Assembly (NCBI GenBank): GCA_964016885.1
Contig: OZ024764.1
Location: forward strand, 16,864,001-16,928,000
DNA from: Eledone cirrhosa
Lineage: Eukaryota
DNA: 64,000 bases
Direction of reading: 5' to 3'
Positions 58 to 58,037 of this stretch are shown here, in pieces; position 1 is the stretch's first letter; every line of letters starts with the position of its first letter. Both the position numbers and the translations under genes were made by a program. The notes under the pieces are model-generated. The model saw only the letters and a list, made by a program, of their open reading frames with translations, was not told the DNA's origin and made no database searches.

Positions 58-250
58 ATAGGAACCAGTAAGACCCCGACAGCTGAGCTCAAGCCGTTTC
101 GACGGCTAATTCTGGACTGAATTAGCCGTCGAAACGGCTTGAGCTCAGCTGTCGGGGTCCTACTGGTTCCTATTACCCACTCTACTACCTCAAGTATTGA
201 GTACTTTGGTGCATTATGGTCCACCTGGTTCCTTACCACATTTCCTTCGG
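58..250 (+). mobile_element. Fold-back (55-bp arm) non-coding element carrying the 3' half of a type I hammerhead motif; probable Penelope-like pLTR remnant
   Basis: 58-112 is the reverse complement of 119-173 (1 mismatch). The right arm reads GTC-GAAA-CGGC[TTGAGCTCA]GCTG-TC-GGGGTC. Related copies lie at about 53705-53850 and 54720-54780. Confidence 0.55.
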
Positions 251-6085: not shown

Positions 6086-6277
6086 GTGTGTGTGTTTATA
6101 TATATATGTGTGTGTTTATATATATATGTGTGTTTATATATATATTTATGTGTGTGTGCGTGTGTATATATATATTTATGTGTGTGTGTGCGTGTGTATA
6201 TATAGATAGGTGTGTGTATATATATAGATATGTATGTGTGTGTGTGTGTGTATATATATATGTGGAGGGGCGTGTAT

Positions 6278-6690
6278 ATAATACAGTAAACATATAATAC
6301 AATAAACATGTAATACAGTAAACATGTAATACTGTAAACATGTAATACAGTAAACATGTAATACAGTAAACATGTAATACTGTAAACATGTAATACAGTA
6401 AACATATAATACAATAAACATGTAATACAGTAAACATATACAATAAACATGTAATACAGTAAACATATAATACAATAAACATGTAATACAATAAACATGT
6501 AATACAGTAAACATATAATACAGTAAACATGTAATACAATAAACATGTAATACAGTAAACATATAATACAGTAAACATGTAATACAGTAAACATATAATA
6601 CAGTAAACATGTAATACAATAAAACATGTAATGCAGTAAACATATAATACAGTAAACATGTAATACAGTAAACATGTAATACAGTAAACA
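6278..6690. repeat. 16-bp minisatellite
   Basis: Unit TAATACAGTAAACATG. Confidence 0.95.
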
Positions 6691-6694
6691 CAGG

Positions 6695-6972
6695 GGTTAT
6701 GTTACATATAGACACAACTCAGGAATTTAAGGCATTTGTGGCATTTCTACTATTCAGCTGTGATTTCAGTATGTTCCTTACACTCCTTATGTATTCAGAT
6801 CTTAGCACTTTCTCCATTTTATTATACTCGATATTATCTGCCTTCCTATATTTCTCTTTGGTGTCAATCTCTTTTATCATCTCACTTGTTGTTACCTCGA
6901 TTCCTTTGCTTCTCTTCAGTTTACCCTTCTTCATAACTAGGGCCCCACACTTATTAACACCAAATTCCATAC
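6695..6972 (-). mobile_element. Degenerate R4/Dong-type non-LTR retrotransposon RT fragment
   Basis: The translation MEFGVNKCGALVMKKGK...EYIRSVRNILKSQLNSRNATNALNS resembles the RT domain 6-8 region typical of R4/Dong elements. Confidence 0.65.
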
Positions 6973-6974
6973 AT

Positions 6975-7395
6975 ATATGTGTTGAGAGAAAAAACTGTGT
7001 TTAAAAGGGTTAAGTTGTAGTGTGCTGGAGAGAAGACTGAGATGGTATGGACATGTGATGTACATGGAGGATGACCGCTGGGTAAAGAAGTGCCAAGAAA
7101 TGCCAGTGGGAGGAAGACACAGTAGAGGCAGACCACGAAAAACATGGGCGGAGGTGGTGAGAGTGAAACTGTATAAGAGGGATAAGTTGTAGTGTGATGG
7201 TATGGACATGTGATGTGCATGGAGGATGACCACTGGGTAAAGAAATGCCAGTAGATGGAAGACCACGAAAAACACAGGCGGAGGCAATGAGACCAGACCT
7301 CAGATCACTGAAACTCACGGAGGAGATGACAAGTGGAGAGATGCTGTGCTGAATAAGGACCCGTCCCACCCTTGCAAGCAGAGAAAAGCAAACAT
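6975..7395 (+). mobile_element. RTE-clade LINE 3' fragment with internal duplication
   Basis: Encodes RRLRWYGHV...RGRPRKTW and ends in the CCCACCCTTGCAAGCAG tail. Confidence 0.85.
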
Positions 7396-7639
7396 AAAAT
7401 GATTTACCACAAAAATACAATAGTAAATATAGAGTAATGTAAATGCTAAAGGGTTAAACCTTGTTTACATTACATTGTCAATGATAGCCTCATAGCAAGC
7501 TATTGACTTAAGAAATATATCTTAGTAGCTATCATGTTTTACTTGTTCATTTATCAGCATTTTTACAGTGCTTATATATGGGAGAATTTTTACCTTATGT
7601 ATAATCCCCCAGCAAGCCAACATCATTTAATACTGCACA

Positions 7640-7795
7640 CTGTATCAGGCTCCAGCATTCAATAATCGGAAGAAGGAGGTAGGTGTAAAAGCCAAACTTG
7701 CTATCTTCAGTTCAGTTTTTGTGCCAACCCTTAACTATGGTTATGGATCTTGGGTAATGACGAAAGGAATATGGTCATGAATACAAGCGGCCATG
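7640..7795 (+). mobile_element. RTE-clade LINE fragment (second family)
   Basis: Translates KAKLAIFSSVFVPTLNYGYGSWVMTK...IQAA, the RTE post-RT motif. Confidence 0.65.
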
Positions 7796-7921
7796 TTCAT
7801 TCTGTCATTACAACAGCAGAGGTCCGACAAAGATTTTGATTCCAGAATCTATACAGATCGATACAGATCGAACCTTGAGCTGATCATTAATAAAACATGC
7901 GTCACCAATCAATAAACATAA

Positions 7922-8106
7922 ATGTTTCTACTTTAGGCACAAGGCCAGCAATTACCCAGTGTATTACTGGTACTTTATTTTATCGATCCCGTAAGGATGA
8001 AAGGCAAAGTTAACCTCGGCGAGATTTGAACTCAGACCACAAAGGGCCGTAACTCTATGCTGCAAAGCATGGCGTCCGACCCTCTACCAATCCTGCCAAT
8101 CCACCA
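7922..8106 (-). mobile_element. tRNA-derived SINE family B with ~18-bp TSD
   Basis: Head GGTGGATTGGCAG..GGTAGAG, B-box GAGTTCAAATC, centre TTTGCCTTTCATCCTTACGGG-TCGATAAAATAAAGTACC; flanked by the direct repeat CACCAATCAATAAACATAA. Confidence 0.85.
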
Positions 8107-8167
8107 CCAATCAATAAACATAATGAAGGCTTAACAAATCATCCTTGTATTATTATATTACACTCTG

Positions 8168-8348
8168 GGGCGGTGGATTGGCAGTATCAGTAGAGGGTCG
8201 GATGCAAAGAGTTACCTCCCTTTACGATCTGAGTTCAAATCCCGCCGAGGTTAACTTTGCCTTTCATCCTTACGGGGTCAATAAAATAAAGTACCAGTAA
8301 TACACTGGGATAATTGCTGGCCTTGTGCCTAAAGTAGAAACAATTATT
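8168..8348 (+). mobile_element. SINE family B, head-to-head with the previous copy
   Basis: Same consensus; flanked by near-identical ATTATAT(T/C)ACACTCTG repeats (TSD). Confidence 0.85.
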
Positions 8349-8450
8349 ATATCACACTCTGTCTAGCTCTACACCTCACCACTGACGTGACCCTAAACAT
8401 TGAGTGCTCACCTGGGTGAACCTACAGTAACTTCACGTTACACTCCCTGG

Positions 8451-8486
<36 letters not shown>

Positions 8487-53439: not shown

Positions 53440-54416
53440 TGTATACACGCAGGAAAGTGTATCAGTTGACAGCGACCCATAGACCAAGCCACACATACTT
53501 TTCATTCTCTCTCTGACAACAATTTCTGGTAAGGTTCGCACTTTTACATTTTATTTATTTAAATATATATATATATATCATTATATATATATATATATAT
53601 ATATATAAACAAATATATCATTATATATATATATAAACAAATATATCATTATATATATATATATAAACAAATATATCATTATATATATATATAAACAACT
53701 ATATATAGGAAAATGTTCAAGACCGCGACGGCAGAGCTCAAGCCGTTTCGAAATAGCCGTCAAACAATTTCCTATTACCCACTCTACTACCCTAAGTATT
53801 GAGTACTTTGGTGGGTTATGGCCCACCTGGTTCCTTACCACACTTCCTTCACACAATGTACTGGATTATTTGCTTTGTTATTTCTGTTATCGGGCGATGT
53901 GTTATGGTCCTTGGGCAAGACACTTTATTTCACGTTGCTCCTTCTACCTGGAGTTGTGACTGATAGATAGTATTAGCAATTGGAAAGACCAGTGGAAACA
54001 TTGTTTCCTCTGTCCGATTTGACGAAAGTCGACCGTTCCTTTTTATTCCTGTTTACTTTTATACACACCCATCCAATCCACACGTAAATACATGAATTGA
54101 CAAACTTGACTCCTTCTTCCTCCCGTTTGACCTGTGAGGAATTCCTTCCTTGCTCACATTTCGACCAGGTTTGATGGTCTTTATTCTCTCTCGTTCACGA
54201 TTTCTCCGAACTTTTATTCATAGAAATCTGGGACTTGACTCGTTCTTCCTCACTTTCGTTGCTTTACCATCTTTGTTTGTTTACACTCTCGCTCGTTCCC
54301 TTTATTTACATGTCCCAACGACTTTCTTTAGCCGTTGCTCGCACCAACCGGAGGTATATGGTCTTTAAAGCGATGAAATACCAATGATGGTTGGAAGATC
54401 ACTGATGTGGACTAAC

Positions 54417-55073: not shown

Positions 55074-55122
<49 letters not shown>

Positions 55123-55237
55123 TAATAAGAGGAATTCCAACTTTGTCTGATTTACTCGTTTTATTTACAATCCTTTAACATTTATAATGGTATTATAATG
55201 AAATAGTATGATAGAATATTAAATTCTAAGTGTTAAT

Positions 55238-55276
55238 TGAACAAGTACTTTCATGCTTTCGCAATCTTCAGGTTCA
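55238..55276 (-). ncRNA. Minimal type I hammerhead (minus-strand copy)
   Basis: Exact reverse complement of 55365-55403. Confidence 0.7.
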
Positions 55277-55364
55277 TAATATGTGGTGACAGTCAAGTTT
55301 GCAATTTTCAACTGTGAAATGTTCAACAGTTGAAAATTGCCAACTTGACTGTCACCACATATTA

Positions 55365-55403
55365 TGAACCTGAAGATTGCGAAAGCATGAAAGTACTTGT
55401 TCA
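55365..55403 (+). ncRNA. Minimal type I hammerhead ribozyme
   Basis: TGAAC-CTGAAGA-T TGC GAAA GCA T-GAAA-GTAC-TT-GTTCA: stem I TGAAC/GTTCA, GNRA-capped stem II, palindromic GTAC stem III. Confidence 0.72.
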
Positions 55404-55574
55404 ATTAACACTTAGAATTTAATATTCTATCATACTATTTCATTATAATACCATTATAAATGTTAAAGGATTGTAAATAAAACGAGTAAATCAGACAAAG
55501 TTGGAATTCCTCTTATTAATATAATCTTCTATACACAATCATACACATCCATGTATATTTATCTATCTCTGACC

Positions 55575-57279: not shown

Positions 57280-57472
57280 CAATTACATGTGTGCAGGTAA
57301 GTGTTCAACAAGACACTATGATATGATAGTTCCCTGATCACACAGAAAACGACTATATATAAATGAACCACGATGACACCAAACTGCTATATTATTAATT
57401 TATTGTAAATAGCTTACGCCGAAGCTATACAGAAAATACACAAGAATTATAAACATTATTTGTTTGTAAAAG

Positions 57473-57559
57473 ACAGCAGCGAGGAGTACTGGGCAGCCTC
57501 TCTAATGATTTTTGAGGCAAGCCAGCACACTGGCAGTGTTACCTCGGATGATGGCGAGG
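57473..57559 (+). CDS. Candidate 87-nt exon
   Basis: GC-richer island with an AAAG acceptor and G|GTGAGG donor; open (D)SSEEYWAASLMIFEASQHTGSVTSDDGE, phase 1-1. Confidence 0.28.
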
Positions 57560-58037
57560 GTGAGGTGCTGGAAAAACCAATTTAAAACATATTTGTTATG
57601 TTATTTATGTATATATTTAAAAGATATTTGGTATGTTATTTATGTATATATTTAAAACATATTTGGTATGTTATTTATGTATATATTTAAAACATATTTG
57701 GTATGTTATTTATGTATATATTTAAAACATATTTGGTATGTTATTTATGTATATATTTAAAACATATTTGTTATGTTATTCTACTGTAAATTTATTTATA
57801 TGCTCTGTTTATATTTTCATTCTGAAAGAATTGCAAACAATTTGTAATGTTGTTTGTATGAAAGATTACAAGGTATGCTCTATAACCTGTAAAAAAAATA
57901 AAATAAAATAAAAAAGATTGAAAACAAATAATATTTTCAATGGCAACTCTATAGAATTAAATGTATTTGTCAAGAAAACTTCATGAACTTCACTGTCTTG
58001 GTTAAGAGGGAGAGCAAGAGATAGAGATTGAGTAAAA

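What the first reader, a model, noticed from the sequence alone, without database searches (positions are those of the whole stretch)
55118..55523. 400-bp palindrome with divergent hammerheads on both strands
Seen: the near-perfect ~198-bp arms each contain TGAAC-CTGAAGA-TTGC GAAA GCAT-GAAA-GTAC-TT-GTTCA, so either transcription direction yields one ribozyme plus its antisense. The U.U pair at the base of stem II is shared with the 48211 family. Established: Penelope-like elements often leave inverted pLTR arrangements carrying minimal hammerheads. With the motifs at 119, 17934, 20612, 48211, 48408 and 49895, at least four or five unrelated hammerhead-bearing families occupy this 64 kb with no PLE ORF. 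Inference: a dense, diverse population of ribozyme-bearing, (TA)n-associated fold-back retroelements inside one gene region.
Basis: partly seen in the sequence, partly recalled or inferred. Interest (0 to 1): 0.82.

Follow-up and report, generated by a model that had tools for sequence, protein, structure and literature searches.

The report
Back-to-back Penelope retroelement ends with ribozymes
This 400-bp palindrome is two back-to-back copies of the end repeat of a Penelope-like jumping gene, each with a hammerhead ribozyme motif; such pairs are known, but the more than a thousand joints in this octopus-like genome likely record two DNA copies made from either side of a cut and joined in the middle, plus rare copies likely made from self-cleaved or edited RNA.

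Summary
The palindrome is real (197 of 198 bases) and each arm holds a minimal type I hammerhead motif. It is not a separate kind of element. Each arm is the pLTR of an EN+ Penelope-like element, whose full-length copies (RT, GIY-YIG, Neptune/Nematis-type linker) lie elsewhere in this octopod genome. The genome holds 5,173 exact cores and 1,102 head-to-head joints at this site. The arrangement and the U·U variant are published. The new part is the copy statistics. Of 83 pairs, 75 carry the tail on one arm only; 20 of 91 have arms differing at two or more subfamily sites; the commonest joint has a one-base centre. These favour two cDNAs primed on both target ends and annealed head to head, over single-strand fold-back. 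About 43 copies start exactly at the predicted scissile bond, versus about 7 three bases upstream, suggesting cleavage in vivo. Three loci carry ADAR-like A-to-G clusters, one on both arms of a single strand. No RNA run was available.

The parts
55118..55315 (-). pLTR copy 1 (198 nt, no tail); outer end in a TATA run next to (CA)n
   Evidence: matches the 3' pLTR of full-length copy L031 at 100%
55238..55276 (-). minimal type I hammerhead motif, U10.1.U11.1, palindromic stem III, CUU triplet
55316..55325 (.). 10-nt filler that resembles scraps of the adjacent cDNA ends (inferred repeated anneal-extend cycles)
   Evidence: sequence; junction spectra
55326..55523 (+). pLTR copy 2 (198 nt); begins at ACAGTT, the inferred RNA 5' end
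   Evidence: TATAAAAGG at -31 and CCAAT boxes at -93, -130, -169 in copies that keep the 3' UTR
55365..55403 (+). minimal type I hammerhead motif; predicted scissile bond 55398/55399
   Evidence: excess of 5' ends at this bond
55524..55568 (+). PLE tail (~45 nt), on this arm only
48181..48330 (-). family B copy (U4A core, U.U, CUU), also a head-to-head pair with one tail; second copy at 48378-48527, degenerate copy at ~49897
17934..17994 (+). unrelated canonical-core type I hammerhead motif, in intron 1 of the DOK-like gene
20612..20658 (+). unrelated U3-A8 type I hammerhead motif, same intron
58..175 (.). family C head-to-head palindrome with the same architecture but no valid hammerhead core

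Best explanation
The palindrome is two copies of the end repeat (pLTR) of an EN+ Penelope-like retroelement joined head to head, likely made when the element's protein cut a (TA)n run, primed reverse transcription from both DNA ends, and the two short cDNAs annealed by their 3' ends. Shown: full-length copies begin at the same ACAGTT as the palindrome centre and encode RT and GIY-YIG. Inferred: the RNA starts at ACAGTT from a promoter in the preceding 3' UTR; priming occurs about 195 or 245 nt into the RNA, one site per DNA end, so one arm has the tail and the other does not; both cDNAs run off the RNA 5' end as ...AACTGT-3', which pairs with its twin at 4 of 5 bases. The hammerheads are passengers of the pLTR. 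Most templates were uncleaved; a few percent were likely cut at the hammerhead first. The insertion lacks the upstream promoter; if read through, it would form a 198-bp hairpin that buries the ribozyme and would be an ADAR substrate.
For: IDENTITY: L031 has pLTR-ORF-pLTR, and its 5' pLTR starts at the centre sequence. RVT_1 and GIY-YIG hits; DKG, C-x4-CxxC linker, CCHH. L079 holds two uninterrupted copies. RNA 5' END: TATA at -31; most arms start at positions 1-6; contig depth of runs X1 and X5 (kind unknown) steps up about tenfold at this site. TWO PRIMINGS: tail on exactly one arm in 75 of 83 scorable pairs (4 both, 4 none; p 9e-15 against 50%). The tailed arm is the shorter one at the centre in 14 of 31 asymmetric pairs (hand count), which copying of a tail-less first strand cannot give. 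20 of 91 pairs differ at two or more subfamily sites, L012 at five. 27 of the first 50 joints are AAC-W-GTT with a one-base centre. The same joints occur in both orientations to the tail and in several subfamilies. In vitro, a PLE protein cuts and extends both strands and starts at two RNA sites flanking the tail (PMC11167929, parts 1-2 of 4 read). CLEAVAGE: 26 of 52 hits examined (of 86) start exactly at the bond, against 4 of 56 (of 94) three bases upstream; estimates 43 (31-55) versus 7 (2-16).
Against: Arms are usually far more alike than random copies: discordance at subfamily sites is 6.5%, against 30% for random pairing and 2.1% background. 33 rare variants are shared by both arms, against 274 on one arm. 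L161's arms share 13 A-to-G changes. These fit one source locus, one RNA copied twice, arm-to-arm conversion, or fold-back in some copies; I cannot separate them. [quoted passage not shown] The 83 pairs come from loci picked by different patterns, 21 of them chosen for likeness to the window arm. The control five bases downstream of the bond also held about 9 truncations among 21 hits, so the peak has a 3' shoulder. The start site, cleavage and expression were not measured.
Confidence: 0.75

Rival explanations
1. One cDNA (or an antisense RNA, as proposed for rotifer Penelope) folds back on itself and is copied to make the second arm.
For: Arms mostly share subfamily and some private variants; L161 shares edits on both arms; the cDNA end can pair 22 nt upstream and L127 has that joint. 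Self-priming is the published reading (PMC3846280, passages).
Against: The tail sits on the shorter arm in 14 of 31; 20 of 91 pairs have discordant arms; the commonest joint would need a one-base loop.
Confidence: 0.13
2. The palindrome spreads as a unit, as a MITE-like or hairpin-RNA non-autonomous element amplified from a few masters.
For: Two joints dominate (27 and 12 of 50). L163 is edited A-to-G on both arms of one strand, so at least one palindrome likely passed through a hairpin RNA.
Against: Joints are diverse, the window's is unique among 53 scored, and the same joint recurs in both tail orientations and several subfamilies. Arms extend to variable lengths into the PLE 3' UTR and ORF. 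No target duplication is evident at the window copy.
Confidence: 0.07
3. The palindrome is a selected bidirectional ribozyme device or a retrozyme making circular RNA.
For: None of 16 subfamily sites falls in the 39-nt hammerhead (p about 0.02, inflated because many loci were picked by the core).
Against: That constraint acts on source elements. The units are head-to-head, not tandem; the insertion lacks its promoter; the hairpin (-319 kcal/mol) leaves stem I at probability ~0.
Confidence: 0.04
4. The palindrome is an assembly artefact of fold-back reads.
For: Arms are nearly perfect.
Against: Flanks are not mirrored, the tail is on one side, the arms differ at one base, and 1,102 joints recur genome-wide against 1 for the control.
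Confidence: 0.01

Closest known systems
Inverted pLTR structures of EN+ Penelope-like elements (PMC3846280 and PMC8557442, passages read)
   Same: Head-to-head inverted pLTR, 30-40-nt tail on one end, (TA)n targets, TATA and Inr-like motifs.
   Different: Here pLTR-only pairs number over a thousand joints, meet at one fixed site, and the promoter lies upstream of the repeat; the papers interpret the joint as self-priming or leave it open.
Minimal hammerheads of metazoan PLEs (PMC4209133, parts 1-2 of 4 read)
   Same: Type I, short stem I, small palindromic stem III; that paper already notes pairs 100-700 bp apart on opposite strands.
   Different: Stem II is only 3 bp plus U.U instead of a long helix with G10.1-C11.1; the triplet is CUU. 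U10.1-U11.1 is a known natural variant (PMC3088659, passages).
Poseidon from Anolis, in vitro TPRT (PMC11167929, parts 1-2 of 4 read)
   Same: Both strands cut and extended; two internal RT start sites flank the tail; uncleaved RNA is the main template.
   Different: That study saw no strand preference for start site and no reads at the cleavage site; here the two ends are anti-correlated and a minority of copies start at the bond.
Neptune/Nematis clades (features from PMC8557442 passages)
   Same: C-terminal GIY-YIG with CCHH, CX2-5CxxC linker, DKG motif.
   Different: Two overlapping ORFs with a U UUU UUA heptamer instead of one ORF; that paper's Fig. 1 legend allows a frameshifted ORF1 in some PLEs, but I could not see which clade.
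Non-LTR retrozymes (10.64898/2026.07.22.740005, part 1 of 5 read)
   Same: Non-coding, hammerhead-bearing, PLE-derived.
   Different: Retrozymes are head-to-tail tandems; this is a head-to-head pair.
L1 twin priming (recalled; only search listings seen)
   Same: Two primers on the two target ends, cDNAs joined by microhomology.
   Different: In L1 the two cDNAs cover different parts of one RNA; here both cover the same repeat, sometimes from different RNAs.

Membership tests
EN+ Penelope-like element | RT with DKG motif and C-terminal GIY-YIG with CCHH in the parent element | tested here: met
   (RVT_1 27.6-29.4 bits, just under the 29.6 cut-off; GIY-YIG above cut-off)
EN+ Penelope-like element | pLTRs flanking the ORF, bearing a hammerhead | tested here: met
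   L031, L073, L075
EN+ Penelope-like element | Tail on one end; inverted 5'-truncated copy | tested here: met
EN+ Penelope-like element | Single ORF (canonical form) | tested here: not met
   ORF1 (476 aa stop to stop) and ORF2 overlap in -1 frame in L073, L075 and both L079 copies; heptamer in 5 of 5 copies. A frameshifted ORF1 is a described option, so this lowers 'canonical', not 'PLE'.
Neptune/Nematis clade | CX2-5CxxC linker before the GIY-YIG | tested here: met
Neptune/Nematis clade | Placement in the RT phylogeny | not tested
   no named reference set among the hits
Naiad/Chlamys | N-terminal endonuclease, no hammerhead | tested here: not met
Type I minimal hammerhead | CUGAnGA, GAAA and UH core with stems I and II | tested here: met
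   (isolated motif folds so, -5 kcal/mol, z -0.4; not the MFE fold in the 245-nt arm)
Type I minimal hammerhead | Palindromic stem III allowing dimers | tested here: met
   AAGUACUU; two copies cofold through it
Type I minimal hammerhead | G10.1-C11.1 pair | tested here: not met
   U.U instead; a known variant
Type I minimal hammerhead | Self-cleavage at the predicted bond | not testable with these tools
   indirect only: excess of 5' ends
Non-LTR retrozyme | Head-to-tail tandem units each with a hammerhead | tested here: not met
MITE | Terminal inverted repeats with fixed target duplication, derived from a DNA transposon | tested here: not met
   asymmetric ends, RT parent

The most novel reading that the evidence does not exclude
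This family is a genomic record of the PLE cycle: a protein dimer primes both ends of a cut at two different RNA sites, often on two RNAs, and joins the cDNAs; its U.U/CUU hammerhead cuts in the germ line; and the resulting palindromes, when transcribed, become ADAR-hyperedited hairpins that are written back into the octopod genome, making PLEs both a large source of perfect dsRNA and a route from RNA editing to heritable sequence.
Probability: 0.4. Interest if true: 0.75.

Novelty: new member of a known kind. Interest (0 to 1): 0.5.

Why it matters
The object itself is ordinary for PLE specialists. Its value is as a test set. How PLE inverted structures form, and whether PLE minimal hammerheads cleave in vivo, are stated as open in the papers read (PMC8557442, PMC4209133, PMC11167929). 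Thousands of young copies with an intact parent give countable predictions: one tail per pair, an annealed one-base joint, and a peak of 5' ends at the scissile bond. About 45,000 U.U-type cores and many perfect hairpins in an octopod also bear on why octopus has unusually much dsRNA and hyper-editing (PMC5625713, passages).

Tried and rejected
Rfam scan: only microsatellite-driven miRNA matches among the rows shown, no hammerhead listed. DNA-transposon readings (piggyBac, Sola, ISL2EU-like ends; recalled features) were dropped once the tail and RT parent appeared. Sequencing runs: no RNA holder listed; the contigs laid cannot show starts, strand or editing. Search for antisense-edited copies: 36 hits, only L163 clearly clustered. 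L167 from the editing search was unrelated sequence and was dropped. The 48211 family's arm starting at its cleavage site was not counted as cleavage evidence, because stem I itself supplies the microhomology there. A possible exon at 57409-57582 found no homolog, so I cannot say the palindrome is intronic. That 117 of 120 homologs start inside ORF2 is no evidence for two ORFs, since fused proteins exceeded the length limit. Dropped before the cleavage counts: none; the 52 include 2 internal deletions, 1 unrelated hit and 1 tandem duplicate (counted among the 26); the 56 include 1 unrelated hit. Two relevant papers (Lunse 2017; Arkhipova 2017) were not held and may already cover some points. 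Searches for prior reports found none on two-ended priming in PLEs or on edited PLE retrocopies; the library omits most subscription papers. No supplements were read. Look-ups of earlier findings returned nothing.

Full report
OBSERVATION. The arms are 55118-55315 and 55326-55523, identical at 197 of 198 bases, with a 10-nt filler. Each holds UGAAC-CUGAAGA-UUGCGAAAGCAU-GAAA-GUAC-UU^GUUCA, pointing outward. A descriptor scan finds 6 cores in the window and none in 100 local shuffles. Four families have valid cores: this one (A), 48211/48408 (B), 17934 and 20612. The motif at 119 has none. The host is an octopod: six exons of a DOK-like PH/PTB gene map to 5315-27392, one of them 85% identical to an Octopus vulgaris protein. 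The palindrome lies 28 kb past the last matched exon.

IDENTITY. The arm is a young dispersed repeat: 870 first-look candidates, of which 40 were scored, at 98-100% identity, and 5,173 exact 37-nt cores. Some copies continue upstream through a 3' UTR into an ORF. L031 is a full element: pLTR, coding region, 3' UTR, pLTR, (TA)n. The protein has RT and GIY-YIG domains, DKG, a C-x4-CxxC linker and CCHH, the features given for Neptune/Nematis in PMC8557442 (passages). I built no tree. Named homologs include bivalve proteins at 49-63%. The palindrome is therefore two pLTRs head to head. The right arm carries a further ~45 nt, the PLE tail.

SCALE. Among the first 100 exact cores listed (start of C1), I count 23 head-to-head pairs, 13 of them short, and no tail-to-tail pair within 2 kb (hand count). 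That extrapolates to roughly 670 short palindromes with both cores exact. A pattern spanning the joint finds 1,102 sites against 1 for the control; it misses long fillers such as the window's and includes some short fold-backs. A looser U.U core pattern gives 44,844 matches against 308, about four fifths family B among the 100 listed.

THE RNA 5' END (inferred). The full-length copy, most solo copies and most palindrome arms begin at or within six bases of ACAGTT. Copies that keep the 3' UTR have TATAAAAGG at -31 and CCAAT boxes further up. ACAGT matches an initiator consensus I recall. Family C shows the same layout. The palindrome itself lacks this promoter.

HOW THE PAIR FORMS. From 91 distinct head-to-head pairs in the loci then held: the tail is on exactly one arm in 75 of 83 scorable pairs. 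It is on the shorter arm in 14 of 31 asymmetric pairs (hand count). Twenty of 91 pairs differ at two or more of 16 subfamily sites, and 18 of those 20 still have one tail. The commonest joint, 27 of the first 50, is AAC-W-GTT, what two cDNA ends ACTGT give when annealed at 4 of 5 bases. The same joints occur in both orientations to the tail and in several subfamilies. This fits priming on both target ends, as shown in vitro for Anolis Poseidon, which extends both strands from two RNA sites flanking the tail (PMC11167929). Against this: arms are mostly concordant (6.5% discordance versus 30% at random, 2.1% background) and share 33 rare variants (274 unshared). One source locus, one RNA used twice, conversion between arms, or fold-back in a fraction would all give this. 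The published reading is self-priming (PMC3846280, passages). I put two-ended priming at 0.75.

THE RIBOZYME. The motif is minimal: 5-bp stem I, 3-bp stem II with U.U, and a palindromic stem III that pairs between two copies. U10.1-U11.1 is a known variant (PMC3088659). Opposite-strand pairs 100-700 bp apart are already noted in PMC4209133. Most templates were uncleaved, since arms include the sequence 5' of the bond. To test for cleaved templates I counted copies with a foreign base just before a fixed position. At the bond, 26 of 52 examined (86 in all) are true 5' ends; three bases upstream, 4 of 56 (94 in all). Estimates are 43 (31-55) and 7 (2-16). Five bases downstream, about 9 of 21 are truncated, in a pattern covering about 70% of copies. 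L236 is two arms joined bluntly at the bond; L079 is two uninterrupted full-length copies, 99.5% alike, joined there. This is indirect evidence of cleavage in vivo. In a transcript of the whole palindrome the hairpin (-319 kcal/mol) removes the ribozyme fold.

EDITING FOSSILS. Among 256 arms, only L161 stood out: 13 A-to-G changes on both arms, 3 more on one. Two targeted patterns (19 and 16 hits) added L163 and L164. In L163 the sense arm has 11 A-to-G of 13 changes and the other arm 5 T-to-C of 5, so both arms are edited on one strand (p 1e-9 and 1e-5). None of 23 edited sense positions has a 5' G, against 10 of 60 A's, as I recall for ADAR. The simplest reading is a hairpin transcript edited and then reinserted. 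It rests on one locus, and such copies are rare.

VERDICT. A new, abundant member of a known kind. The copy statistics make two open PLE questions testable. No RNA data were available, so transcription, cleavage and editing of this locus are untested.

Noticed in passing
L079:4800-6227 and 6137-8461 (+); also L031, L073, L075: The parent element has ORF1 and ORF2 overlapping by about 90 nt in -1 frame, with a U UUU UUA heptamer in 5 of 5 copies; a programmed frameshift is likely. No stimulatory structure was established.
   Followed up: partly
L079:291-9062: An 8.7-kb palindrome of two uninterrupted full-length elements joined at the hammerhead cleavage site by GTT microhomology.
   Followed up: yes
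L161, L163, L164: ADAR-like A-to-G clusters fixed in genomic copies; in L163 on both arms of one strand.
   Followed up: partly
L169:2-358 and L172 (reverse strand) 3-566: Two family B copies have a GIY-YIG ORF about 1 kb upstream; L172's has a CxCX5C linker (Hydra-clade feature). If linked, two PLE clades share the U.U/CUU hammerhead variant. The link is not established.
   Followed up: partly
tail ends of family A, e.g. L036, L046, L054, L055: The tail end is followed by (ATCT)n in 39 and (CT)n in 27 of 121 ends scored, suggesting RT stutter at initiation seeds compound microsatellites.
   Followed up: partly
window 58-175 and 53719-53751: Family C has the same promoter, joint and one-tail architecture but only the GAAAC...GUC half of a hammerhead.
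   Followed up: partly
L092, L096, L100, L104, L111, L235, L247: Upstream sequence, in several cases recognisably the element's own ORF in sense orientation, is joined directly to the hammerhead 3' product, as if RT jumped from a cleaved RNA's 5' end to another RNA.
   Followed up: no
window 5315-27392 (+): DOK-like PH plus IRS-type PTB gene, six exons matched; two unrelated hammerheads lie in its first intron.
   Followed up: partly
window 29129-30595 (+): A 488-aa non-LTR-type RT ORF, with related fragments scattered through the window.
   Followed up: no
window 48181-48527: Two identical 150-bp family B copies 197 bp apart, a local tandem duplication.
   Followed up: no
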